Below, piece by piece: positions 3-59,432 of a DNA stretch of 64,000 bases (its first letter is position 1; every line of letters starts with the position of its first letter). The notes under the pieces were generated by a model. That model saw only the letters and a program-made list of their open reading frames with translations. It did no database searches and was not told where the DNA came from. A program made the translations under genes and the position numbers. Source of the stretch: an uncultured Eubacteriales bacterium (GTDB taxonomy: Bacteria > Pseudomonadota > Alphaproteobacteria > RF32 > CAG-239); assembly GCA_963632615.1 (NCBI GenBank), contig CAVGVF010000001.1, positions 7,993 through 71,992 on the forward strand, written 5' to 3'.

Positions 3-1109
3 TTGCGCGTTCAGCTTTCAAAACTGCCGCAAATGGTTGCTTTGCTTAACGGGGTCGGCGGCTTGGCTTCGGCTTTTATTATCTGCTGCCCGTTTAAATA
101 CAGCAAAGAAAATATTTTGGAAGTGCTGTGCGTTATTATCGGCTTAATGACTTTCAGCGGTTCAATGATTGCTTTTGCCAAACTGCACGGCTGGCTGCAC
201 AAAAATTTTGACTGGTTCAAATGGCTCAGCGTGGGGCTCGAAATTCTGCTGCTGGCAAATGCCGTATATTTTGTACAGACCGACAGCGGTTTCGGAGGAG
301 TAATGGTTTTGGCGCTTTTAGTCGGTATCTGCGGCACTATGCCGATTGGCGGCGCCGATATGCCGGTAGTTATTTCTTTGTTGAACTCGCTTTCCGGCTG
401 GGCTGTGGTTTTAGTCGGCTTGCTGGCCGGCGATTTGCTGCTGATTATTACCGGTACTTTGGTTGGCGCCAGCGGCACGATTTTATCTTATGTGATGAGT
501 AAAGCGATGAACCGTTCGCTCTTGAAAATTATTTGGCCGGCACGTCAAAAAAACGAAAAAGAAAATGTTTCGGCCGGTATTGTAAAAAAAGGTTCGGCCG
601 AAGAAGCCGCTTTCATTATGGAAAATGCCCGCAATATCATTATTGTACCCGGATTCGGCATGGCGGCTGCACATGCGCAAATAGCCTTAAAAAGCATGAG
701 CGATATTTTGACAGACAAATACGGCGTCAATGTGCGCTATGCAATTCATCCGGTGGCCGGACGCATGCCAGGACACATGAATGTTTTGCTGGCAGAAGCG
801 CAGGTGCCGTATGACAGTATTTTTGCAATGGAAGACATAAATCCGGATTTTGCATCTGCTGATGTGGTGTATGTTATCGGAGCCAATGATGTAACGAACC
901 CGCTTGCTAAAACCGATGCTAATTCGCCGCTGTACGGAATGCCGATATTGGAAGTTTCAAAAGCCAAAACCGTATTCTTTGTCAAACGCTCCATGGCCGC
1001 CGGTTATTCCGGTGTGGATAATCCGCTGTTTTATGCTCCTAATACAATTATGCTGTTCGGCGATGCCAAGCAAGTAACGGAAAATATTTTGAAAGCCTTA
1101 GAAAAATAA
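3..1109 (+). CDS. pntB: NAD(P) transhydrogenase subunit beta, 5'-truncated by the window edge
   Basis: The ORF is open from the window edge. Several TM helices are followed by a C-terminal NADP(H)-binding domain with recognisable strings (GFGMAAAHAQ, HPVAGRMPGHMNVLLAEA, VIGANDV). Confidence 0.85.
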   Translation: MRVQLSKLPQMVALLNGVGGLASAFIICCPFKYSKENILEVLCVIIGLMTFSGSMIAFAKLHGWLHKNFDWFKWLSVGLEILLLANAVYFVQTDSGFGGVMVLALLVGICGTMPIGGADMPVVISLLNSLSGWAVVLVGLLAGDLLLIITGTLVGASGTILSYVMSKAMNRSLLKIIWPARQKNEKENVSAGIVKKGSAEEAAFIMENARNIIIVPGFGMAAAHAQIALKSMSDILTDKYGVNVRYAIHPVAGRMPGHMNVLLAEAQVPYDSIFAMEDINPDFASADVVYVIGANDVTNPLAKTDANSPLYGMPILEVSKAKTVFFVKRSMAAGYSGVDNPLFYAPNTIMLFGDAKQVTENILKALEK

Positions 1110-3438: not shown

Positions 3439-4761
3439 TTAAGCTTTTTGCCCCAGCAAACGCTTTTTAGCTTTTTCATAGCCGATTAGCGGCAGCAGAG
3501 TTTTGAGTTCCGGTCCGTCATCCAGAGCTGTCAAGGCTTTGCGCAGCGGATGAAACAGCTCACGTCCTTTTTTGCCGCTCTGAGCTTTTAGAGCAGACAG
3601 CCATTCATTAAACGTGTTTTCATTCCAAGGCTCTGCCGGCAGCAATTCCGCCGCCAAATCGGTTAAGGCCTTATCTTCAATAATCGGCGAAACTTCTTTA
3701 TAGCAGATATCTTCCCAAACCTTAACATCTTCCACCACGTTCAAATTAGCACGCACATCATTCCAAAATGTTTCATCGGCAGCAATGCGGTCTTTTACCA
3801 AACTATATGGCATAGAGCGCACAACTTTGGTATTGAAATGCTTTAACTCTTCTTCATCAAACTTAGGCTGAGAACGTCCCAATTTGCTAAAATCCAAAGA
3901 TTCTGCCAGTTCATCCAAAGAATAATACGGCTCTATAGCATCAGAAGTGCCGAGTTTTGCTAAAAATGAACAAATCGCCATCGCTTCTACGCCCTCTGCT
4001 TTTAGCTCGCGCACGCCCAAGCTGCCCAAACGTTTAGAAAGCTTGCCCTCAGTACCGGTCAGCAGCGGCAAGTGGGCAAAAGTCGGAACTTTGCCGCCGA
4101 TAGCTTCAAACATCTGAATCTGCGAGGCAGTGTTGGTGGTATGGTCTTCGCCGCGCACAATGTGCGTAATGCCGAAATCGCTGTCATCAATGCAGGACGG
4201 CAGATGATACAGATAGCTGCCGTCTTCGCGGATAATAATCGGGTCGCTGAGCTTTTCAGCCTCATAGCGGCAATGTCCGCGTACAATATCATCCCACTCA
4301 ATCACGCCGTCCAGCAGCTTAAAACGATAGTGCGGCTTGCGCCCCTCGGCTTTGAATTTTGCCAAATCTTCGGCAGTATAATGTAGCGCCTGACGGTCGT
4401 ATACAGGAGCCAAACCCTTTGCCATAGCGCGTTTACGCTTAATTTCCAGCTCTTCCGGAGTTTCATAGCAAGCATAAATTCTGCCCTCTGCCATAAGCTT
4501 TTCTTTAACTTCATTATAGCGGTCAAAACGAGCCGACTGACGGGCTTCTTCGCTCCAGTTAAAGCCCAGCCATACCAAGCTTTCACGCATGGCATCCTCA
4601 TATTCTTTTTTGGAGCGGAGGCGGTCGGTATCATCAATTCTCAGCATAAATTTACCGCCGAGTTTTTTAGCCAGCAGCCAGTTAAACAAAGCTGTTCTGG
4701 TGTTGCCTATGTGCATAAAGCCGGTTGGGCTTGGTGCGAATCTTACTTTTATTTCAGACAT
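3439..4761 (-). CDS. gltX: glutamate--tRNA ligase (short form)
   Basis: 440 aa. The N-terminus RFAPSPTGFMHIGNTRTALFNW carries the HIGH-type motif, and a KLSKR motif is present. Confidence 0.9.
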   Translation of the reverse strand: MSEIKVRFAPSPTGFMHIGNTRTALFNWLLAKKLGGKFMLRIDDTDRLRSKKEYEDAMRESLVWLGFNWSEEARQSARFDRYNEVKEKLMAEGRIYACYETPEELEIKRKRAMAKGLAPVYDRQALHYTAEDLAKFKAEGRKPHYRFKLLDGVIEWDDIVRGHCRYEAEKLSDPIIIREDGSYLYHLPSCIDDSDFGITHIVRGEDHTTNTASQIQMFEAIGGKVPTFAHLPLLTGTEGKLSKRLGSLGVRELKAEGVEAMAICSFLAKLGTSDAIEPYYSLDELAESLDFSKLGRSQPKFDEEELKHFNTKVVRSMPYSLVKDRIAADETFWNDVRANLNVVEDVKVWEDICYKEVSPIIEDKALTDLAAELLPAEPWNENTFNEWLSALKAQSGKKGRELFHPLRKALTALDDGPELKTLLPLIGYEKAKKRLLGQKA

Positions 4762-8142: not shown

Positions 8143-8218
8143 AGGGGTATAGCTCAGTTGGTAGAGCATCGGTCTCCAAAACCGAGTGTCGTGAGTTCGA
8201 ATCTTACTGCCCCTGCCA
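8143..8218 (+). tRNA. trnW: tRNA-Trp (anticodon CCA)
   Basis: A 76-nt cloverleaf folds by hand: acceptor AGGGGTA/TGCCCCT, anticodon loop CTCCAAA, T-loop TTCGAAT, encoded CCA. Confidence 0.93.
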
Positions 8219-8607
8219 AAACAAAGCCGCCATTAGGGCGGTTTTTTTGTGGCATTCGGGGCTGTTGATGAGAACTCACGAAAGAGTGGTTCGACCACAA
8301 GCGAAAGGCGGACTTTTGGACACCGGTGAGCTTTGCGAATGAGCGCCGTGGCGGCGTAGCCAATCTTACTGCCCCTGCCAAAACAAAGCCGCCATTAGGG
8401 CGGTTTTTTTGTGGCATTCGGGGCTGTTGATGAGAACTCACGAAAGAGTGGTTCGACCACAAGCGAAAGGCGGACTTTTGGACACCGGTGAGCTTTGCGA
8501 ATGAGCGCCGTGGCGGCGTAGCCAATCTTACTGCCCCTGCCAAAACAAAACCGCCTTTAGGTCGGTTTTTTTTATGGCATTCGGGGCTGTTGATGAGAAC
8601 TCGGTTC
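8200..8607 (+). repeat. 2.5 tandem copies of a 162-bp unit, each led by the last 19 nt of tRNA-Trp
   Basis: Units start at 8200, 8362 and 8524 with AATCTTACTGCCCCTGCCA (T-loop A58 to CCA). Each continues with a terminator hairpin and a core of about 110 nt. Copies 1 and 2 read identical. Copy 3 is diverged in the terminator stem, has a 10-nt deletion and is truncated. Confidence 0.9.
8226..8248 (+). terminator. rho-independent terminator after tRNA-Trp
   Basis: CCGCC/GGCGG stem with loop ATTAG, followed by T7. Confidence 0.75.
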
Positions 8608-43062: not shown

Positions 43063-43446
43063 ATGCGTAAAGCTTTATTTTTAACTTTATTGGCAATACT
43101 CTGCGCGCATACTGCTGCCGCAGACACAATTATAATAATGGATGACAATAATAACATTAAGCAGCAAATATATACCCTGCCTAATACCGCCGTGCAAACA
43201 GCACCTGCTGTTCAAACTGTAGTGCAGCCGCAGCCGGTTTATGTTACGGGAGCTCCTTTGCCGCCGCAGCAGGTGATTGTTACCCGTCCGGTTCCGCCGG
43301 TTGTGGTAGTCAGAGAAACACCTGCTCCGCGCAATTATTACTATGATTCAGCTGCAACTGCAGCCGTAGCCGGTTTTACCGGAGCGCTGGTCGGCAGCGT
43401 TATCTTCGGCGGCGGCCCTCATCACCACCATCATCATCGAAGATAA
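43063..43446 (+). CDS. small secreted/anchored P,V,Q-rich protein ending in a natural His6 tract
   Basis: A signal peptide is followed by a PVQ-rich segment, a Gly-rich hydrophobic segment (AAVAGFTGALVGSVIFGGG) and a C-terminal PHHHHHHRR. A terminator follows. Confidence 0.6.
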   Translation: MRKALFLTLLAILCAHTAAADTIIIMDDNNNIKQQIYTLPNTAVQTAPAVQTVVQPQPVYVTGAPLPPQQVIVTRPVPPVVVVRETPAPRNYYYDSAATAAVAGFTGALVGSVIFGGGPHHHHHHRR

Positions 43447-43472: not shown

Positions 43473-44585
43473 TTATAATTTAAAATACAGAACAAGCTGA
43501 CAAGCTCTGTCCGAATTACATTTTTTGCAAAAATCATGAATTTCATTTGGCTTGGCTGAACCGATTTTTATTGTTTTAGCGTTATAACCGCCGAAACTGT
43601 CATCGCTGCCGCGGCTTTGCACTTGTCTGATATATGGCGAAACTGCCTGCGCTTGTTCTAAAAATGTCACACAATATTGCTGCTTTAGACGGCTTGATTT
43701 TTCTGCTGAAAAAATATCAAAAATCAAAAGATATTCCAAGGCTGAATATTTTATTCCGGCTTCATCGCTCCACTTGCTTTCGGTAAAATAAACATAGATA
43801 AGATTATCGGCAAAATCTTTAACATGATATAAACCGGCTTTTTTCATGCCGTCAGGGATTACTCCCATAGCGTCCATAATATCCGCTGTCGGCACAGCTT
43901 TCTTTGTCGTATTATATTCACGCAGAAAATCATCTTTTAAATTAACGCACTGTAAAAAAAATTCAGCTAATTGCTCTTTTTGCCGGCTGATTTTCCACAT
44001 TTCCATGGCCTTAGAATAACCGGCAATTCCGCCAACAGAAAGCACGGCGATAATGGCCAGCACGCCCAGCATTTCAATCATTGACCGGCCAGATTGCAAC
44101 ATACTCTTATAGTCATCCTTGGCTTTGAGCGTCAGCTCATTCGCCGAGCATCCAGGATGGTATATCCGCTTAAAAAACTGGTAACAAACACTAAGCCTTT
44201 GTCTTTTACCGTCATTGCCGGACGTGACGCACAGTCCGTTCCGGCAATCTTGGCTCAACATACTCCTTTTGAATAATAAGGCTAATTTATTGACTAGGTT
44301 AGTCACTTGTTGCACCAAGATCCTAGGCACAAGGCCTAGGATGACTGGTGTAAAAAAACGATAAGCTATACTGTTTCCTACTTTTAATAATATTGCCATA
44401 AAAGTCCTGGATTCTCCGGACAGTTCACTTCGTTCACGCCGAAGAATGACGTTGTGAGCAGAGGAGAATAAACGCAAGTATATACCGACTGTTTGTTCTC
44501 TAGTACCCCTCACCCGGAGCGGGGCTCCGACCTCTCCCGCACAGGGCGAGGTTTTAATTTTATTTTTCAAATTTTTTAATATCAT
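43473..44585 (-). CDS. prepilin-type N-terminal cleavage/methylation domain protein (pilin-like A); start uncertain
   Basis: The class III signal (QSG|RSMIEMLGVLAIIAVLSVGG, Glu at +5) begins at codon 162 (ATG 44102). The long ORF runs from ATG 44585, which has AGGAAG 6 nt upstream, and stays in frame. Cys pairs lie in the C-terminal half. Confidence 0.75.
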   Translation of the reverse strand: MILKNLKNKIKTSPCAGEVGAPLRVRGTREQTVGIYLRLFSSAHNVILRRERSELSGESRTFMAILLKVGNSIAYRFFTPVILGLVPRILVQQVTNLVNKLALLFKRSMLSQDCRNGLCVTSGNDGKRQRLSVCYQFFKRIYHPGCSANELTLKAKDDYKSMLQSGRSMIEMLGVLAIIAVLSVGGIAGYSKAMEMWKISRQKEQLAEFFLQCVNLKDDFLREYNTTKKAVPTADIMDAMGVIPDGMKKAGLYHVKDFADNLIYVYFTESKWSDEAGIKYSALEYLLIFDIFSAEKSSRLKQQYCVTFLEQAQAVSPYIRQVQSRGSDDSFGGYNAKTIKIGSAKPNEIHDFCKKCNSDRACQLVLYFKL

Positions 44586-44827
44586 TACAACTTCCTATCA
44601 TTTTGAAATCACAACAAAAAAGCCGCTTAAAAAAAGCAGCTGGAAGTTGGTAACCACAACTAGATGGTGCAGTATATTGCATAATATATTTTACTGCCTT
44701 CCAGCCAAAACCAGAAAGCATGCAAAATTATCGTCTTTACACAAGACGCTAGTTGAGGGGTTACCACACCCCGAACAGGCTATTGCCTGTCTGTTTTCAA
44801 ACTAAACGGATATACTGAAAATGTAAA
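44103..44827 (-). promoter_or_regulatory. conserved structured leader, copy A (homologous to 55737..56458)
   Basis: It has -35/-10-like boxes (TTTACA/TAGTTT, 17-nt spacer), hairpins that covary with copy B, a terminator and an anti-SD/SD arrangement. A 47-nt block (44405-44451) is identical to 56116-56162. Confidence 0.6.
44615..44640 (-). terminator. intrinsic terminator/attenuator inside leader A
   Basis: On the minus strand, GCTGCTT/AAGCGGC stem followed by TTTTTTGTTGT. It is positionally equivalent to 55928-55954, with a different stem sequence. Confidence 0.6.
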
Positions 44828-48563: not shown

Positions 48564-49397
48564 ATGAGTGAAAAAAAAGATTTGAATGCTAATGAGCTGT
48601 TAATCGCCAAAAAAGAAAAACAGCGTAAAAAAGAACAGCTTCTGCAAAAAGTCAAAGAAATGATGATTCTGCTTTTTGTAATAGCAGTTTTTGCCGGAGG
48701 CGGCGGATATTTTGCAGCTCAGTTTATGCAAAAGCGCTATGACTACCTGCAATATATAAAAAACTTGAATCAGACAACTCTGGAAATATCCCAGCTGGTT
48801 GATAATATCCGCAACACTTATCTTATTGAACAAGATGCTTCGGCCAAAGATTTGCAGCAGCTGATAAAAATCGGCGCCATTCCGCAAAAGCTTGTCAGAA
48901 CTTTTAACGGACAAAAATATTTAAGAAACCCGTTCGGCGGCAAGATTATTATTGAAACGTCCGATACTATCTGGAATAAAGAAGGCACTCTCAGCTCGCC
49001 GACATTCAAAATGTCTTACCAAGGGCTGCCGCGCCGGGCTTGCATTGATTTAGCCACTATGGACTGGGGCGATAATATTAAAGGCCTGCTGGCTGTAGCC
49101 ATCGGCAGCGTAGATGCTCAAACCGGCGAAGACAATGCTTTGCATGATATTGATATGACGCCGGAAAAAGAAGAAAAAGAGAAAAAAGCCGCCGCCCCTG
49201 CCGAAAATGACGAATTTGCTCTTGATATGCTGCGGCCTCGTATGCGCTACAGAATGAATGTGGCTAAACCGAACGACCAGTTTATCCCGACGCCTTTTTC
49301 TCAAGGCAATGCCGAAATGGGCTGTTTTTGCGGGCAAAATGACTGCTCTTTTGCTCTCCATTATGCTGTTTTCAGCATCGAAACAGATAAAAAATAA
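48564..49397 (+). CDS. membrane-anchored Cys-rich hypothetical protein (paralog of 58776..59432)
   Basis: 277 aa with one TM helix after a K/E-rich N-terminus. Blocks shared with the paralog are NPFGGKIII, LPRRACIDLATMDWG and GCFCGQNDCSFAL. Confidence 0.6.
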   Translation: MSEKKDLNANELLIAKKEKQRKKEQLLQKVKEMMILLFVIAVFAGGGGYFAAQFMQKRYDYLQYIKNLNQTTLEISQLVDNIRNTYLIEQDASAKDLQQLIKIGAIPQKLVRTFNGQKYLRNPFGGKIIIETSDTIWNKEGTLSSPTFKMSYQGLPRRACIDLATMDWGDNIKGLLAVAIGSVDAQTGEDNALHDIDMTPEKEEKEKKAAAPAENDEFALDMLRPRMRYRMNVAKPNDQFIPTPFSQGNAEMGCFCGQNDCSFALHYAVFSIETDKK

Positions 49398-55501: not shown

Positions 55502-55669
55502 ATGAAAAAAATTATCTGTTATCTGCTACTCTTTTCTTTAGCTTCATGCAGCGGCTTTGTTGCCGGCAATATCAGCAAAGAACGCCAGCATTTGTATGAA
55601 TATAACAACAATCAGGAATATTGCGATAAAAATCCCAACCGCTGTGTTAATAATATCCCTTGGAGCTAA
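55502..55669 (+). CDS. small lipoprotein
   Basis: ATG 55502 gives MKKIICYLLLFSLASC, with lipobox LASC. 55 aa, followed by a terminator. Confidence 0.6.
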   Translation: MKKIICYLLLFSLASCSGFVAGNISKERQHLYEYNNNQEYCDKNPNRCVNNIPWS

Positions 55670-55685
55670 TAAAATAAATTACTTC

Positions 55686-55722
55686 AAAAATCCTTAGACT
55701 TTTACTAAACTAAGGATTTTTT
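55686..55722 (+). terminator. rho-independent terminator of the lipoprotein gene
   Basis: AAAAATCCTTAG / CTAAGGATTTTT stem plus T-run. Confidence 0.75.
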
Positions 55723-55736
55723 CATATATAAAGTTC

Positions 55737-56458
55737 TTTACTTTTAATGTCTGTTCCTTTAATCTGAAATTGGATAAGCGATAGTTTATCTGAGGTGTGA
55801 GAACCTCTTATTCATGCGTCTAGCAGACGTTAAATACCTTCTGGTCAAATGACTGGAAGGTAGCAAAATATGCTATTGCTAGCTAATATGCTACACTATA
55901 ATCATGAATAATAGTTCTCAACTTCCAGTCGTCCTTCTTAAAGACGGCTTTTTTGTTGTAATTTCAAAATGAAAGGAAGTTGTAATGATAAAAAATTTGA
56001 GAAATAAAATTAAAACCTCACCCCGTGCGGGAGAGGTCGGAGCTCCGCTCCGAGTGAGGGGTACTAGAGAACAAACAGTCGATATATACTTGCATTTGTT
56101 CGCCACCACTCTCAGCGTCATTCTTCGGCGTGAACGAAGTGAACTGTCCGGAGAATCCAGGAATATAATGGCAATATTTTTAAATGCAGCAAACAGTATT
56201 GTCTCTAGCTTTTTTACCGTCATTACCGGATTTATTCCGGTAATCTTAGTACAGCGGGTGACTAACCAAGTCAATAAATTTGCCTTATTATTGCATAAGT
56301 ACCGGTTCAGCCAAGATTGCCGGAACGCGTCCGGCAATGACGGGTGCTGTGGACGCTTGTTTATGTTTTTCCCATTCCTTAAATTACTGAATCGGATGTA
56401 CCATCCTGGATCCTCGGCGAATGAGCTGGCGCTCAAAGCCAAGGATGACAATAAGAGT
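55737..56458 (+). promoter_or_regulatory. conserved structured leader, copy B (homologous to 44827..44103 minus)
   Basis: TTTACT (55737-55742) and TAATCT (55760-55765) are 17 nt apart. The leader also has covarying hairpins, a terminator at 55928-55954 and an anti-SD CAACTTCC (55919-55926) facing the SD GGAAGTTG (55975-55982). In-ORF hairpins lie at 56222-56244 and 56316-56338. Confidence 0.6.
55928..55954 (+). terminator. intrinsic terminator/attenuator inside leader B
   Basis: GTCGTC/GACGGC stem followed by TTTTTTGTTGT. Confidence 0.6.
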
Positions 56459-57079
56459 GTGTTGCAATATGGCCGGTCAATGATAGAAATGCTCGGCGTT
56501 TTAGCGATAATCGGAGTATTGTCTGTTGCAGGCATCGCCGGTTACTCTAAGGCTATGCAAATGTATGCCATTAACAAACAACGTAATGCTTTAATAGAAT
56601 TTTTATCTAATTTTTTACATATAAAAGATGAACTGCCCTACAAAGAAGACGGAACAGCGATAAATTATCCGGAACTAATGGAAGCAATGGATATGCTACC
56701 TAAAGAATTTACAGTTGTACATGGAATACAATGGGTAAATATGCGAGATAAATACGGTCATAATATAAGATTCTATTATTCTAATAACGGCTTTGGCATT
56801 CTCTACAGTTTTCATAATAATAAAAACAGCTCTCTTGTTTGCCAGGCTTTGGCTGAAACTGCTTTAAGTTTTAAAAATGATATATATATGATGTATCGTC
56901 AACCTATGGCCGGCAGCGGTATTCCCTATTACAGAATTTACGGCAACCATTATTGCATAAAAAACGCTAAATGCCTAAATAACTTAACCGTTAATGATAT
57001 AAATGAACTTTGCTATTTTTATAATGATAAAGATGAAAACAAATATCACTATGTAATCCAAATTGGCTTCAAAAAATAG
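55985..57079 (+). CDS. prepilin-type N-terminal cleavage/methylation domain protein (pilin-like B); start uncertain
   Basis: The class III signal (QYG|RSMIEMLGVLAIIGVLSVAG) begins at codon 159. The only internal starts are GTG 56459 and TTG 56462. The long ORF from ATG 55985 has AGGAAG 6 nt upstream. Confidence 0.75.
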   Translation: MIKNLRNKIKTSPRAGEVGAPLRVRGTREQTVDIYLHLFATTLSVILRRERSELSGESRNIMAIFLNAANSIVSSFFTVITGFIPVILVQRVTNQVNKFALLLHKYRFSQDCRNASGNDGCCGRLFMFFPFLKLLNRMYHPGSSANELALKAKDDNKSVLQYGRSMIEMLGVLAIIGVLSVAGIAGYSKAMQMYAINKQRNALIEFLSNFLHIKDELPYKEDGTAINYPELMEAMDMLPKEFTVVHGIQWVNMRDKYGHNIRFYYSNNGFGILYSFHNNKNSSLVCQALAETALSFKNDIYMMYRQPMAGSGIPYYRIYGNHYCIKNAKCLNNLTVNDINELCYFYNDKDENKYHYVIQIGFKK

Positions 57080-57162
57080 CGTTAATATTTAAGTTTTTCC
57101 GGTTTTATTCAGCTAAATAGTATGCTATAGTCTGGCATATTTTAACAAATCGGAGGACTGTA

Positions 57163-58296
57163 ATGAAAAAATTTAGCTGCATTTTATGTTCAATCGCTGT
57201 TTTGCCTTGCGCTGTGCAGGCTGAAGGTTTTGATTTCAGTCAATCCGGTTTGGCCGGCGTATATTACGGGGTTATGCAAACCCGCCGCCAAAACAACTAT
57301 GACAATATGCCGAACCGCTTAGTTTACCGCCAAGACGGACGTTTTGAGGGTGCCTATAGCTTTGCCGACAAAACCCGCTTGGGCGCTCATGCCGACTATA
57401 CTTTGGCTTTCCGCCAGCACGATAAAGATTATAATGACGGCGACTGGCGCTTTTATCCGTATGCGTTGGCCGAAAATCCGGCTTACGGTAAATTTACGGT
57501 CGGTTATTCCTACAACGCGGCACAGCAGCTGCATCAAGGCGCACAGGATATCAGCTGGATTGGCATTCAAGACAGCAATCTGCCGAACTTTTTAACCAGC
57601 GCCAACTGGGTAAACGGCTTGAAAAAGACTAAATTTGCCACCCCAAAGTCTACCACCATTCTTGATGACGGCCGCGCTCTGAAATTTGTTTATTTTACCC
57701 CGATGATTGGCAACACTAAGTTCGGCTTTAGTTATACGCCGGAAAATGCCAGCCGCCGCGGTATGGTCAGCCGCTATACGGACTATGAAAAAAATGAAGA
57801 CGGCTACACCGCCGCCATGCAAAATAAATGGGCTGTCGGTTTGGGCGATATCTATACTTCCGCCGCTTACGGCGAATTTAACGGCACTGATAAAGAATGG
57901 GCTTTCGGCGTGCGCTGGATTGTTGATAACTTTAATGTTTCCACTTCCTACAAAAAAGCCTACATCGATGGCAATAAAAACCCGATTACCACGGTGTCGG
58001 ACAATCCGTATCTGCCGGCGCTGTTTGACAATTACCGCGAAGGTCAGTCTTGGGATTTCAGTATCGGCTACAAATTCTTTGACCGCTTGAAAGTCAATTT
58101 TGCTTATTTGCATACTGAAGCCAAAAACACCCGTAACCGCGATGATTTATATGTGCAGGCGAACAGCTTTGAAGTTAATAAATATCTGGAATTGTTCCTG
58201 ATTAACGGCTATATTAACTCCAAAGGCACCGAACGCCACTCTTCAAACAACAACCGCGGCTATGCGGTAATCAGCGGTATTGCCTTAAAGTATTAA
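57163..58296 (+). CDS. outer-membrane porin (beta-barrel)
   Basis: 377 aa with signal peptide ...CAVQA. It shows alternating beta-strand patterning, is rich in aromatic, Gly and Asn residues, and ends in IALKY. Confidence 0.65.
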   Translation: MKKFSCILCSIAVLPCAVQAEGFDFSQSGLAGVYYGVMQTRRQNNYDNMPNRLVYRQDGRFEGAYSFADKTRLGAHADYTLAFRQHDKDYNDGDWRFYPYALAENPAYGKFTVGYSYNAAQQLHQGAQDISWIGIQDSNLPNFLTSANWVNGLKKTKFATPKSTTILDDGRALKFVYFTPMIGNTKFGFSYTPENASRRGMVSRYTDYEKNEDGYTAAMQNKWAVGLGDIYTSAAYGEFNGTDKEWAFGVRWIVDNFNVSTSYKKAYIDGNKNPITTVSDNPYLPALFDNYREGQSWDFSIGYKFFDRLKVNFAYLHTEAKNTRNRDDLYVQANSFEVNKYLELFLINGYINSKGTERHSSNNNRGYAVISGIALKY

Positions 58297-58297
58297 A

Positions 58298-58783
58298 ATG
58301 TCTGAAAAACTGCACTGTTTTGCGCCGCTGGTCGATAAAAATACCAAATTTTTGGTAATCGGCACCATGCCCGGCGAGGCTTCGCTGTCTGCGGCAGAAT
58401 ATTATGCTTTTAAACATAATGCTTTTTGGACAATTATCTTTAAGCTGGCTAAAGCCGAAACATCAAATTACGCCGAAAAAATCAAACTGCTGCAAAAACT
58501 GCGTATCGGTTTATGGGATAACCTAAAAGCCTGCGAACGCCTTGGCAGTTTGGACAGCGATATAAAAAACGCCGAACCGAATGACTTTGAAAGCCTGCTG
58601 GCCGAATTTCCAAACATTGAAAAGCTGCTGTTTAACGGGCAAAAATCCTTTGCTTTTTTCAAAAAATATCATCGGCCGCTGCTGGAAAAATACAAATATG
58701 CGGTTTTGCCCTCAACCAGTCCGGCCAATGCCCGGCTTTCATCAGAGCAAAAATTTGCGCTTTGGCAAAAAGAGCTTATTTAA
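58298..58783 (+). CDS. DNA-deoxyinosine (hypoxanthine) glycosylase, UDG family 6-like
   Basis: 161 aa. LVIGTMPGEASL...YYAFKHNAFW matches the family signature as I remember it. Confidence 0.6.
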   Translation: MSEKLHCFAPLVDKNTKFLVIGTMPGEASLSAAEYYAFKHNAFWTIIFKLAKAETSNYAEKIKLLQKLRIGLWDNLKACERLGSLDSDIKNAEPNDFESLLAEFPNIEKLLFNGQKSFAFFKKYHRPLLEKYKYAVLPSTSPANARLSSEQKFALWQKELI

Positions 58784-59432
58784 ATTTCAGCGCCACGGTG
58801 CATGTATTCAGCAAACAGCCACATGCTTCTTTCGTTTCTCGGCGATTCAAATGCCGGCGGGTTATCAATCCTTCATCACGGCTTTTATACTGCTCATTAA
58901 GGTTATCAAACAGCAGATAATTACGTAGATTATAAACCCCGTTAAAAGTCTTTTGCGCCGACAAATAAGAAGCTTCAAGCCCTAAAAAATTCGGAAAGCT
59001 GCGCCGCCAATCCGTCTGCGCCAGTTTTTTGCATTCTTTTTTGGTTAAACGTGTAAACAATATAATATATGCGCCTAAATTATCCGGATTATCTACCCGT
59101 TCGGACAAAGTGTTATAAGCGTTATAAAAGAAAATTTTTCCGCCGAAACGGTTTGAAACATCATAGCTGTTTACTGTTTTTCTAATCGGAAAATCGTACG
59201 GAAGAATATTTTGCACCACCAAAATATTTGCATCCAACGACGGATATCTGCCTTTAAATGTTTCGGACATATTGCTGACAATCTGCGCTATATCGTTTTT
59301 TGTTTTTAAAATGTTGTTATTGAAAAAAATATGAAAATAAGCAAAATATAAGCCGAAAATCAAACAAAACAGCGGCAGACAAAAATACAGCAATTTCAAA
59401 ACAGGCTCAAAACACGATTTTTTGTCAGACAT
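58776..59432 (-). CDS. membrane-anchored Cys-rich hypothetical protein (paralog of 48564..49397)
   Basis: 218 aa with an N-terminal TM helix. Blocks shared with the paralog are NRFGGKIFF, LTKKECKKLAQTDWR and ACGCLLNTCTVAL. Confidence 0.6.
   Translation of the reverse strand: MSDKKSCFEPVLKLLYFCLPLFCLIFGLYFAYFHIFFNNNILKTKNDIAQIVSNMSETFKGRYPSLDANILVVQNILPYDFPIRKTVNSYDVSNRFGGKIFFYNAYNTLSERVDNPDNLGAYIILFTRLTKKECKKLAQTDWRRSFPNFLGLEASYLSAQKTFNGVYNLRNYLLFDNLNEQYKSRDEGLITRRHLNRRETKEACGCLLNTCTVALKFK

What the first reader, a model, noticed from the sequence alone, without database searches (positions are those of the whole stretch)
55985..56458. A 474/483-nt stretch is both a hairpin-rich conserved nucleotide element and an intact in-frame extension of a prepilin
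From ATG 55985 (B) and ATG 44585 (A) the reading frame stays open for 158/161 codons. It runs straight into the prepilin signal G|RSMIEMLGVLAII.

Evidence for translation:
- a conserved AGGAAG SD;
- all four indels between the copies are multiples of 3 (3, 3, 12 and 9 nt);
- copy B has no ATG at the pilin signal, only GTG or TTG;
- some substitutions are synonymous (gcc/gct, cgg/cga, tcg/tca).

Evidence for RNA-level selection:
- long blocks have zero substitutions (47 nt at 56116-56162), while the pilin helix just downstream is saturated with synonymous changes;
- a perfect 9-bp hairpin occupies the same position with an entirely different sequence: ATTACCGGA-TTTAT-TCCGGTAAT (56222-56244) versus ATCCTAGGC-CTTGT-GCCTAGGAT (44342-44320);
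- a second 9-bp hairpin, ATTGCCGGA/TCCGGCAAT (56316-56338), carries a 12-nt loop insertion in A;
- the helix CATCCTGG (56402-56409) / CCAAGGATG (56439-56447) buries the only AAGGA upstream of the pilin signal.

One reading is a prepilin with an unprecedented leader peptide of about 160 aa; type IV leaders are normally under about 30 aa. The other is a translated or structured regulatory leader. I do not know of either being described.
Basis: partly seen in the sequence, partly recalled or inferred. Interest (0 to 1): 0.8.

Follow-up and report, generated by a model that had tools for sequence, protein, structure and literature searches.

The report
Palindromic repeats translated inside pilin leader
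A 468-base block of small palindromic DNA repeats sits, in frame, inside the normally tiny removable leader of a pilus-subunit gene of an uncultured gut bacterium, apparently giving it a leader about 160 amino acids long; hundreds of sister genes do the same, so the cut-off leader seems to serve as a safe harbour for repeat DNA.

Summary
ORFs 55985-57079(+) and 44585-43473(-) each carry a 163/166-codon N-terminal extension running into a class III (prepilin) signal, G|RSMIEMLGVLAII. The stretch folds better than shuffles (z -3.9). All four indels between the copies are multiples of 3.

The stretch is neither one RNA element nor a folded domain. It is a mosaic of REP/RPE-like palindromic modules (W, Y, X, Z). 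A collinear ortholog lacks exactly 55997-56464 (468 nt) and has the short leader MKNNQLG|RSM.

More than 560 paralogous pilin genes in gut Alphaproteobacteria MAGs carry such modules between start codon and cleavage site, shuffled, duplicated and in either orientation. Frame is kept almost without exception:
- 3 stops in 3864 leader codons, against 305 and 243 in the other two frames;
- 33/33 and 17/17 X modules at distances divisible by 3.

The palindromes also covary (12 of 38 pairs). Amino-acid sequence is barely constrained, and AlphaFold gives the leader low confidence.

Best reading: the block is translated from the upstream ATG and removed with the leader. This is a new variant of a known kind (in-frame palindromic repeats), with leaders far beyond the 6-26 aa given in a review. 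Translation and cleavage are inferred, not shown.

The parts
55792..55954 (+). Context, not part of the repeat block: 'UP1', a structured 5' leader RNA. A long closing helix encloses three hairpins and is followed by a terminator-like hairpin (arms about 55928-55933 and 55943-55948) and a U-run (55949-55954).
   Evidence: Conserved upstream of 18 paralogs. RNAalifold gives 45 pairs, 28 with compensatory double changes, covariation term -8.4. No Rfam match even at E<=1.
55974..55987 (+). Shine-Dalgarno AGGAAG (55974-55979) and start codon ATG (55985-55987) of prepilin B.
   Evidence: The AAAGGAAGTT...ATG motif is invariant in 18 UP1-type paralogs. In short-leader paralogs it is followed 24 nt later by the Ser(+2) codon of the signal (RSMIEML).
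55985..56473 (+). Leader-peptide coding region of prepilin B: 163 codons ending in Gly(-1), GGC 56471-56473.
   Evidence: AlphaFold pLDDT is 35-56 over residues 1-162. No Pfam family matches the leader; the only Pfam match in the whole protein is a sub-threshold N_methyl hit at residues 165-182, in the pilin signal.
55997..56464 (+). The inserted mosaic itself: 468 nt (156 codons), present here and absent from a collinear orthologous locus.
   Evidence: L081 aligns to 55949-55996 (87.5%) and 56465-59079 (84.8% over 2617 nt) with nothing in between. Its leader is MKNNQLG|RSM.
56009..56062 (+). Module W (peptide IKTSPRAGEVGAPLRVRG), a GC-rich nested hairpin.
   Evidence: Folds at -23 kcal/mol, z -1.9. 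Found in both orientations in other leaders (3 plus, 12 minus) and in intergenic spacers.
56111..56164 (+). Module Y (peptide LSVILRRERSELSGESRN). By eye a stem ATTCTTCGG (56120-56128) / CCGGAGAAT (56148-56156). It contains the 47-nt block identical in A and B.
   Evidence: The stem is read from the sequence; the minimum-free-energy fold of the isolated module is not better than shuffles (z -0.2). Peptide variants VMLACEHSELPRASRN in homologs suggest compensatory stem changes; this is inferred and was not checked on DNA.
56213..56347 (+). Module X, a bipartite palindrome of about 131 nt: hairpin 1 at 56222-56244, hairpin 2 at 56316-56338, and outer arms that also pair with each other.
   Evidence: An nhmmer profile hits the same sites on both strands. 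z -5.9. 12 of 38 pairs show double compensatory changes against 4.7 +/- 1.5 in shuffles, 0 of 500 shuffles as high, and at most 3 in slid controls.
56387..56449 (+). Module Z (peptide LNRMYHPGSSANELALKAKDD), a hairpin whose 3' arm holds the AAGGA upstream of the signal.
   Evidence: Folds at -23.6 kcal/mol, z -2.9. Recurs in homologs next to other modules.
56474..57079 (+). Mature pilin B: a hydrophobic N-terminal helix with Glu(+5), then a globular domain, then the stop codon.
   Evidence: Hydropathy peak 2.31. pLDDT is 59-96 per 10-residue block over this part (59-73 for residues 161-190, mostly 85-96 from 191), with a helix at 160-216 followed by a beta-sheet. Best meaningful PDB fold match is 3fhu, Salmonella Typhi type IVb pilin: probability 0.96, TM 0.63 normalised to the target, but E-value 0.069.
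44088..44585 (-). Leader-coding region of the paralogous prepilin A: 166 codons, same W-Y-X-Z order. Its own UP1 copy lies about 44620-44800.
   Evidence: X in A (44206-44354) folds with z -6.0.

Best explanation
The stretch is a mosaic of small palindromic repeat modules of the REP/RPE/BIME kind. It lies inside the part of a type IVb-like prepilin gene that encodes the cleavable leader peptide.

Inferred mechanism:
1. Ribosomes start at the conserved SD/ATG at 55985.
2. They read through the 468-nt mosaic in the pilin frame and continue into the class III signal.
3. The prepilin peptidase then cuts after Gly(-1), discarding the repeat-encoded peptide together with the ancestral leader of about 7 residues. 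The mature pilin is unchanged.

Because the leader is thrown away, the only requirements on inserted DNA are a length divisible by three and no stop codon in the pilin frame. The palindromes are maintained at the nucleic-acid level by whatever propagates or homogenises the repeats. Candidates are repeat-specific mobilisation, internal duplication, and gene conversion between the many paralogs, which share conserved flanks.

Shown here: modular repeat nature, presence/absence polymorphism, frame and stop-codon constraint, palindrome covariation, weak amino-acid constraint.
Inferred: actual translation, peptidase cleavage of so long a leader, and how the modules spread.
For: Modularity. Homologous proteins carry W, Y, X, Z and other modules in different orders and copy numbers, with leaders of 4 to 223 residues.

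Insertion polymorphism. The collinear ortholog L081/L082 (93% aa identity in the pilin, same two downstream genes) lacks exactly 55997-56464 and encodes MKNNQLG|RSM.

Frame.
- Start codons located by their non-coding motif are in frame with the signal in 18 of 18 UP1-type and 7 of 7 UP3-type genes.
- 35 distinct leaders delimited by non-coding landmarks hold 3 stops in 3864 codons in the pilin frame, against 305 and 243 in the other two frames.
- All 33 X-type modules near a signal lie at distances divisible by 3, at 16 distinct distances and in both orientations.
- In an element-first scan of metagenomes, 17 of 17 X hairpins with a signal downstream are in frame and stop-free, at 12 distinct distances.

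Palindromes. X matches its own profile on both strands and covaries.

Repeat family.
- The identical 27-nt hairpin sits in non-pilin contexts in high-GC contigs, read as Alphaproteobacteria from memory (taxon not tested).
- Modules lie in intergenic spacers.
- The stems resemble Bradyrhizobium Br-REP1/2 (PMC5082802); this resemblance was judged by eye.

Weak protein-level constraint.
- A/B differences fall 24/26/38 over codon positions, with 47 non-synonymous and 17 synonymous codon changes. The pilin helix gives 4/4/16.
- The leader has pLDDT 35-56 and no Pfam family.

Decoupled evolution. Leaders are 59-83% identical between paralogs whose mature domains are 31-50% identical. The orthologous pair WIN_A/P0037 (88% identical when mature) differs by 27 gap columns in the leader.

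Precedent. Rickettsia palindromic elements insert in frame into genes (PMC10969869).
Against: - No expression or protein data exist for this organism, so translation and cleavage are inferred from conservation alone.
- Leader peptides of class III signals are described as hydrophilic and 6-26 aa long (PMC4471445). B's leader also contains a hydrophobic stretch, SIVSSFFTVITGFIPVILV, with Kyte-Doolittle mean 2.17, close to the pilin helix's 2.31. That stretch could disturb membrane topology.
- Copy A has an ATG five codons before the first mature residue, and B a GTG and a TTG there, so internal initiation cannot be excluded.
- Unlike Rickettsia palindromic elements, nearly all copies found lie in one gene family's leader: 2059 of 2186 blast hits are within 800 nt of a signal, and there are none elsewhere in the 64-kb window. 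That sampling was centred on pilin genes.
- No target-site duplication, terminal inverted repeat or associated transposase was identified.
- One leader (L056) has an in-frame TAG and two (L022, L049) are broken.
- No pilus-assembly genes were seen among the window ORFs inspected (ORF translations read by eye for 41-64 kb; Pfam on 10 of the 30 ORFs of 180 aa or more in 1-39.6 kb).
Confidence: 0.68

Rival explanations
1. DNA-level function. The palindromic mosaic is kept because it gives portable homology or breakage-prone hairpins that drive gene conversion and recombination among the many pilin paralogs, diversifying surface antigens. It is translated only as a side effect. This overlaps with the best explanation rather than excluding it.
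For: - Leaders are far more alike between paralogs than the mature domains are (59-83% against 31-50%), and they are mosaic between alleles.
- Single genomes hold at least 17 paralogs with an invariant 30-residue N-terminus and highly divergent globular domains.
- A and B form an inverted pair 11.4 kb apart.
- Sister genes carry a (TC)n tract that looks like a slipped-strand phase switch.
Against: Homogenised leaders are equally expected from passive gene conversion between conserved flanks. Short-leader paralogs are just as diversified in their mature domains.
Confidence: 0.14
2. Regulatory RNA leader. The hairpins act in the mRNA, for example by masking the AAGGA in module Z. The functional pilin is made from an internal start just before the signal (GTG 56459 or TTG 56462 in B, ATG 44102 in A). 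The upstream ORF is a translated regulatory leader.
For: - The region folds better than shuffles (z -3.9).
- Module X covaries.
- Z's 3' arm contains AAGGA, and A has an ATG five codons before the first mature residue.
Against: - Frame and stop-codon constraint links the far-upstream ATG to the signal in every module arrangement.
- The module next to the signal differs between paralogs, and no internal start or SD is conserved.
- AAGGA lies 13-16 nt from the candidate starts, too far for a typical SD.
- The architecture is not fixed, and the whole block is missing from an ortholog.
- No Rfam match.
Confidence: 0.08
3. Functional long pro-peptide. The repeat-encoded leader has a selected protein-level role, such as holding the prepilin in the cytoplasm, timing its processing, or binding a partner.
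For: The open frame is maintained in hundreds of genes. Within one population of 29 near-identical orthologs the leader is no more variable than the mature part (1.5% against 1.7% pairwise). The leaders are basic (23-27 Lys+Arg against 10-11 Asp+Glu).
Against: - Substitutions are spread nearly evenly over codon positions, and non-synonymous changes dominate.
- The same hairpin is used in either orientation, giving unrelated peptides.
- Modules come and go between orthologs.
- Low AlphaFold confidence and no domain match.
Confidence: 0.07
4. Decaying or silent gene copies. The long-leader genes are pseudogenes or unexpressed cassettes, and the open frame is a leftover.
For: A few leaders are broken: L022 has ATG changed to ATA, L049 is frameshifted, L056 has an in-frame TAG. 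All 22 UP2-type sister genes are out of frame at the start in the assemblies.
Against: With a stop density of 6-8% per codon in the other frames, unconstrained leaders of 100-220 codons would be riddled with stops; 3 were found in 3864 codons. The mature domains are intact and predicted with high confidence.
Confidence: 0.03

Closest known systems
Rickettsia palindromic elements (RPEs): short palindromic repeats (MITE-like) inserted in frame into protein-coding genes
   Same: Palindromic repeats of about 50-135 nt with stable hairpins, several families, each read as a recurring peptide. They are inserted in frame without stops, in an alphaproteobacterium with an AT-rich genome, and the host protein tolerates them (PMC10969869).
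   Different: RPEs are scattered over many unrelated genes and spacers. Here nearly all copies sit in one spot, the leader of one paralogous family, stacked as arrays of up to about 220 codons, and the encoded peptide is expected to be cut off. Sequence homology to the RPE families was not tested.
REP/BIME/RIME-type extragenic palindromes, including Bradyrhizobium Br-REP1/Br-REP2
   Same: Short GC-rich hairpin units occur in alternating orientation with conserved linkers, forming mosaics. The stems (GATT-CCGG...CCGG-AATGA) resemble the Br-REP consensus (PMC5082802). The identical 27-nt hairpin occurs in non-pilin contexts in high-GC contigs, read as Alphaproteobacteria from memory.
   Different: Those elements are by definition extragenic, typically in 3' UTRs. 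Here the mosaic is intragenic and under reading-frame constraint. The resemblance to BIME and RIME is from memory, and that to Br-REP is by eye; neither was tested by alignment.
Class III (type IV prepilin) signal peptides, especially type IVb prepilins with long leaders
   Same: Gly at -1, Glu at +5, a hydrophobic helix of about 21 residues, a basic N-terminus, and a globular domain whose best fold match is Salmonella Typhi PilS.
   Different: Reviewed leaders are 6-26 aa and hydrophilic (PMC4471445). These are 163 and 166 aa in the window and up to about 220 aa in homologs, and they contain hydrophobic stretches. The first mature residue is Arg, not Phe or Met.
Phase-variable leader-coding repeats, such as the CTCTT repeats in Neisseria opa genes (recalled from general knowledge)
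   Same: Sister pilin genes (the UP2 type, not the two in this window) have a (TC)n tract just after the ATG, and its length sets the frame.
   Different: The window's two genes lack the tract. The unit is a dinucleotide rather than a pentamer. Switching within a population was not observed.

Membership tests
Type IV prepilin (class III signal peptide) | Gly at -1 followed by about 21 mainly hydrophobic residues with Glu at +5 | tested here: met
   G|RSMIEMLGVLAIIGVLSVAGIAGY: Glu is the fifth residue after Gly, and the hydropathy peak is 2.31. The 30 N-terminal residues are almost invariant in 74 homologs.
Type IV prepilin (class III signal peptide) | Short hydrophilic leader peptide, 6-26 aa (PMC4471445) | tested here: not met
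   163 aa in B and 166 aa in A, with a hydrophobic stretch of mean hydropathy 2.17 in B. The ortholog P0001 has a normal 7-aa leader.
Type IV prepilin (class III signal peptide) | Match to the curated N-terminal methylation models (Pfam PF07963, TIGR02532) | tested here: inconclusive
   PF07963 scores 13.9 bits against a cut-off of 21.2. TIGR02532 scores 14.7 against 16.3 in A. 4 of 27 homologs match PF07963 at E<=0.01.
Type IV prepilin (class III signal peptide) | Pilin fold: a long N-terminal helix packed on a beta-sheet | tested here: inconclusive
   The AlphaFold model has a helix at 160-216 and a beta-sheet; pLDDT per 10-residue block is 59-73 for residues 161-190 and mostly 85-96 beyond. 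The Foldseek match to 3fhu (PilS, type IVb) has probability 0.96 and TM 0.63 normalised to the target, but E-value 0.069. No PDB match by sequence. Paralogs P0075 and P0077 carry Bundlin/PilS Pfam hits.
Type IV prepilin (class III signal peptide) | A prepilin peptidase and pilus-assembly genes in the genome | not tested
   None seen among the window ORFs inspected (ORF translations read by eye for 41-64 kb; Pfam on 10 of the 30 ORFs of 180 aa or more in 1-39.6 kb). The rest of the genome was not available.
RPE/MITE-like in-frame palindromic repeats | Short palindromic unit able to form a stable hairpin | tested here: met
   X matches its profile on both strands. z-scores are -5.9 and -6.0. Covariation in 12 of 38 pairs.
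RPE/MITE-like in-frame palindromic repeats | Many copies, inserted in frame in ORFs and read as a recurring peptide | tested here: met
RPE/MITE-like in-frame palindromic repeats | Dispersed over unrelated genes and spacers | tested here: not met
   94% of hits lie within 800 nt of a pilin signal. There are none elsewhere in the window. Only a handful of intergenic copies were found, plus two in unrelated high-GC contigs. The sampling was centred on pilin genes, so this is a provisional 'not met'.
RPE/MITE-like in-frame palindromic repeats | Terminal inverted repeats with target-site duplication, or an associated transposase | tested here: inconclusive
   Only a TTG is shared at the two junctions of the 468-nt block, which is too short to count. 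No transposase search was made.
Structured cis-regulatory RNA (riboswitch or attenuator), considered for 55985-56458 | Non-coding, with a fixed architecture and conserved covarying helices | tested here: not met
   The reading frame is conserved. The modules are shuffled, duplicated, or absent. No Rfam match. The neighbouring UP1 element (55792-55954) does meet these criteria.

The most novel reading that the evidence does not exclude
Prepilin peptidases of these gut Alphaproteobacteria really do process leaders of 160-220 residues. The leader region of this family of more than 500 pilin genes would then be a purpose-built contingency locus with three stacked layers: a new riboswitch-like attenuator (UP1), a (TC)n slipped-strand switch, and a translated palindromic mosaic. 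The mosaic would serve as portable homology or a recombination hotspot for swapping pilin cassettes, so the repeats would be domesticated rather than merely tolerated.
Probability: 0.2. Interest if true: 0.85.

Novelty: new variant of a known kind. Interest (0 to 1): 0.62.

Why it matters
If the long ORFs are translated and processed, these would be by far the longest class III signal-peptide leaders reported, roughly six to eight times the reviewed maximum of 26 aa. That would give a direct test of how much cargo a prepilin peptidase and the membrane-insertion machinery tolerate on the cytoplasmic side.

The case also shows cleanly how repeat DNA can persist inside genes. A discarded leader is a safe harbour in which only frame and stop codons are policed, which separates nucleic-acid-level from protein-level selection on one sequence.

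Practical consequences:
- The repeats break assemblies just upstream of these genes.
- They inflate predicted protein lengths in thousands of database entries.
- The family marks a large, apparently phase- and antigen-variable surface system in poorly known gut Alphaproteobacteria.

Tried and rejected
- Rfam, at gathering threshold on the whole window and at E<=1 on 55600-56520: nothing in or near the stretch.
- Folded protein domain in the leader: the only Pfam or NCBIfam matches are weak, sub-threshold ones to the pilin signal just past the cleavage site, none in the leader. AlphaFold gives pLDDT 35-56.
- Gene on the opposite strand. ORF 55918-56535(-), 205 aa, spans the stretch, but copy A has only a 60-aa counterpart. 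Reverse frames are stop-free in only 0-8 of 58 leaders. I read it as a by-product of palindromy.
- More copies in the window: sensitive blastn of 55700-56470 finds only copy A.
- A frameshifted homolog, P0038 (repeat-only ORF with module Z read in another frame): its contig could not be retrieved, so this possible counter-example stays unexamined.
- PDB by sequence for the mature pilin: no hit.
- Prior description: searches on long prepilin leaders, in-frame REPs in signal peptides, and RF32 (a name I recalled for gut alphaproteobacterial lineages; the window's lineage was not determined) plus pilin turned up nothing relevant. The library is incomplete.
- 'ON' alleles of the (TC)n sister genes: only three short-contig proteins found. 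This is suggestive, not proof of switching.
- My first stop-count test was circular for frame 0, because the segments had been defined as open. I replaced it with landmark-delimited leaders.
Full report
**1. What is there**

The window holds two paralogous genes in opposite orientation, 11.4 kb apart: B at 55985-57079(+), 364 aa, and A at 44585-43473(-), 370 aa. Each starts at an ATG preceded by AGGAAG. Each stays open for 163 (B) or 166 (A) codons and then reads G|RSMIEMLGVLAII..., with Gly at -1, Glu at +5 and a hydrophobic helix.

- indels of 3, 3, 12 and 9 nt;
- a 47-nt block without substitutions;
- a 9-bp hairpin of different sequence at the same place in the two copies;
- a second hairpin with a 12-nt loop insertion in A.

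The 486-nt leader RNA folds at -150.9 kcal/mol against -126.0 +/- 6.4 for shuffles (z -3.9). One addition: the similarity between A and B continues about 200 nt upstream of the ATG.

**2. It is a mosaic of modules, not one element**

A protein search with B returned more than 6000 relatives. Their N-terminal 30 mature residues are almost invariant. The leader in front of them varies from 4 to 223 residues.

The long leaders are built from recurring peptide blocks in different orders and copy numbers:
- W: IKTSPRAGEV...
- Y: VILRRERSELSGESRN
- X: VITGFIPVIL...SQDCRNASGND
- Z: YHPGSSANELTLKAKDD
- many further blocks seen in the six-frame translations.

At DNA level, X is a palindrome of about 131 nt. 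A profile built from it hits the same sites on both strands with nearly equal scores. It folds far better than shuffles, z -5.9 in B and -6.0 in A. Across 13 copies, 12 of 38 pairs show double compensatory changes, against 4.7 +/- 1.5 in shuffles and at most 3 in slid controls.

W occurs in both orientations. Half-X units occur inverted and are then read as ...KILGT...MTGG.

**3. It is an insertion**

The closest relative of pilin B (P0001, 93% aa identity) lies on contigs collinear with the window, with the same two downstream genes. L081 aligns to 55949-55996 and to 56465-59079 and has nothing in between. Its leader is MKNNQLG|RSM, directly behind the same terminator-like hairpin and SD. The block 55997-56464, 468 nt or 156 codons, is therefore a presence/absence polymorphism between orthologs.

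**4. The reading frame is under selection**

I collected 80 genomic loci using only the conserved mature N-terminus, so the sample is blind to the leader. All come from uncultured gut or rumen Alphaproteobacteria MAGs, a few of them mislabelled bins. More than 560 loci matched in total, and single genomes carry at least 17.

- Start codons were located through their non-coding motif. They are in frame with the signal in 18 of 18 'UP1' genes and 7 of 7 'UP3' genes, at leader lengths of 24-564 nt.
- In 35 distinct leaders delimited by such landmarks there are 3 stop codons in 3864 codons in the pilin frame, against 305 and 243 in the other two frames.
- All 33 X-type modules next to a signal lie at distances divisible by three: 16 distinct distances, both orientations.
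- An independent, element-first scan of metagenome contigs with the exact X hairpin gave 25 loci. Seventeen have a pilin signal 165-615 nt downstream; all 17 are in frame and stop-free, at 12 distinct distances. Six more end at a contig edge.

This rules out a purely non-coding element. Production of the pilin evidently depends on reading through the mosaic from the upstream ATG.

**5. The amino-acid sequence is hardly constrained**

Between A and B, leader differences fall 24/26/38 over the three codon positions, with 47 non-synonymous and 17 synonymous codon changes. The pilin helix shows 4/4/16, with 5 non-synonymous and 12 synonymous.

AlphaFold, run with a 27-sequence alignment, gives pLDDT 35-56 for residues 1-162; in the mature part the 10-residue block means are 59-73 for residues 161-190 and mostly 85-96 beyond. 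No Pfam or NCBIfam model matches the leader.

The mature part has a long helix and a beta-sheet. Its best meaningful PDB fold match is the type IVb pilin PilS of Salmonella Typhi (3fhu: probability 0.96, TM 0.63 normalised to the target, E-value 0.069).

**6. The modules belong to a wider class of palindromic repeats**

Two of the 25 metagenome hits (L102, L104) are high-GC contigs, which I take from memory to be alphaproteobacterial (their taxon was not tested). There the identical 27-nt hairpin, with a partner hairpin about 80 nt away, lies outside any pilin gene. In the gut MAG loci a few W-, X- and LLRFARND-type modules sit in intergenic spacers, for example after adk and between a pilin gene and rbfA. 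By eye, the stems resemble the Br-REP1/Br-REP2 repeats of Bradyrhizobium (PMC5082802).

Even so, 94% of module hits in my sample are within 800 nt of a pilin signal, and the rest of the window has none.

Leaders also evolve separately from the proteins they precede. They are 59-83% identical between paralogs whose mature domains are 31-50% identical. The ortholog pair WIN_A/P0037 (88% identical when mature) differs by a whole module. That pattern fits homogenisation and exchange between paralogs through their conserved flanks.

**7. Most likely mechanism**

- Shown: a REP/RPE/BIME-like mosaic occupies the leader-coding segment, and selection keeps it in frame and stop-free while the palindromes are kept at the nucleic-acid level.
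- Inferred: ribosomes start at 55985, and the prepilin inserts by its class III signal with the leader in the cytoplasm, which is the established topology (PMC4471445). The prepilin peptidase then cuts after Gly(-1) and removes the repeat-encoded peptide. The ancestral leader is only about 7 codons, so any repeat landing between the ATG and the signal must be in frame for the gene to survive. Once a repeat is there, arrays can grow by duplication and spread by gene conversion.

The nearest precedent is the in-frame insertion of Rickettsia palindromic elements (PMC10969869). Three things are new here: the confinement to a disposable leader, the stacking into arrays, and the resulting leader length of 163-166 aa (up to about 220 aa in relatives), against 6-26 aa in the reviewed literature.

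**8. Caveats**

- There are no expression data.
- B's leader has a hydrophobic stretch (mean hydropathy 2.17 against 2.31 for the pilin helix) that might interfere with topology.
- A has an ATG five codons before the first mature residue, and B a GTG and a TTG there. The SD context is poor, and other paralogs have different modules and no conserved start at that place.
- One leader has an in-frame TAG and two are broken.
- How the modules spread is unknown: no target-site duplication or transposase was identified.
- No pilus-assembly genes were seen among the window ORFs inspected (ORF translations read by eye for 41-64 kb; Pfam on 10 of the 30 ORFs of 180 aa or more in 1-39.6 kb).

**9. Things next to it**

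(a) UP1 (about 55792-55954, and upstream of A). This is a strongly covarying RNA, with 28 of 45 pairs showing double changes. It ends in a terminator-like hairpin just before the SD and has no Rfam match. It is a candidate new riboswitch or attenuator, and it is the actual 'regulatory leader' of these genes.

(b) Twenty-two sister genes use another 5' region in which the ATG is followed by a (TC)n tract.
- With n=7 (17 genes) or n=8 (5 genes) the ATG is out of frame with the pilin. None of the 22 is in frame.
- The sequence downstream is nevertheless kept open in the pilin frame.
- Three metagenome proteins carry the predicted in-frame n=6 form.

This looks like slipped-strand phase variation. 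It also supports, independently, the idea that the long leaders are translated when a gene is switched on.

**10. Verdict**

It is best filed as a new variant of in-frame palindromic-repeat insertion, producing prepilin leaders longer than any I found described. Interest is moderately high. Translation and cleavage remain to be shown.

Noticed in passing
window 55792-55954 (+); also about 44620-44800 (-); 16 further loci (for example L032:3770-3950): A conserved 5' leader RNA of about 165 nt ('UP1') lies upstream of the pilin start codon. A long closing helix encloses three hairpins, followed by a terminator-like hairpin with a U-run, then the SD. 28 of 45 predicted pairs show compensatory double changes. 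CTGGAAGG could alternatively pair with ACTTCCAG at the foot of the terminator. There is no Rfam match even at E<=1. Candidate new riboswitch or attenuator.
   Followed up: partly
L005, L009, L010, L014, L018, L024, L030, L039, L043, L050, L052, L057, L062, L064, L067, L069, L071, L075 (about 200-670 nt upstream of the pilin signal at 4007): Sister pilin genes have ATG AAA AAT AAG .. GG(TC)nTG. With n=7 (17 genes) or n=8 (5 genes) the ATG is out of frame with the pilin, so 0 of 22 are in frame, yet the downstream leader is kept open in the pilin frame. Three metagenome proteins (P0122-P0124) carry the predicted in-frame n=6 form. This looks like slipped-strand phase variation in the leader-coding region.
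   Followed up: partly
L102:about 700-860 (-) and L104:2340-2470 (+): The exact 27-nt X hairpin (GTCATTCTAGGCCTTGTGCCTAGAATC), with a partner hairpin about 80 nt downstream, occurs outside pilin genes in high-GC contigs (read as Alphaproteobacteria from memory). An AT-rich gut lineage and unrelated high-GC bacteria therefore share an identical repeat unit.
   Followed up: partly
L002, L004, L006, L015, L016, L021, L023, L026, L028, L034, L042, L047, L053, L055, L066, L072, L076, L080-L082: Many public contigs end 50-600 nt upstream of a pilin signal, inside or just before the leader repeats. The repeats evidently break short-read assemblies, so leader lengths and paralog counts in databases are underestimates.
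   Followed up: no
window 48564-49397 (+) and 58776-59432 (-): Two further ORFs (277 and 218 aa) match Pfam PilS_N (E 3e-9 and, for the second, a weak sub-threshold E 0.024), and the first also Bundlin, but lack the G|RSMIEML signal. Both end in a Cys-containing motif (...CFCGQNDCSFALHY / ...CGCLLNTCTVALKF). They may be divergent pilin-like proteins.
   Followed up: partly
window 8143-8572 (+): A tRNA gene (8143-8215) is followed by three copies, 162 nt apart, of a unit that repeats the tRNA's 3' end plus a terminator-like hairpin (AATCTTACTGCCCCTGCC...GGGCGGTTTTTTT). Two of the 162-nt units are 100% identical. This could be a remnant of integration at the tRNA, or a tandem duplication.
   Followed up: no
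window 43063-43446 (+): A small ORF (127 aa) next to pilin A has a signal-peptide-like N-terminus and Pro/Val/Gln-rich repeats, and ends in GGGPHHHHHHRR, a natural hexahistidine tail.
   Followed up: no
window 10803-11487: Five diverged copies (62-71% identity) of a 58-nt unit, spaced 99-273 nt apart, lie inside ORF 10719-11960(-). This probably reflects a repeat-containing protein.
   Followed up: no
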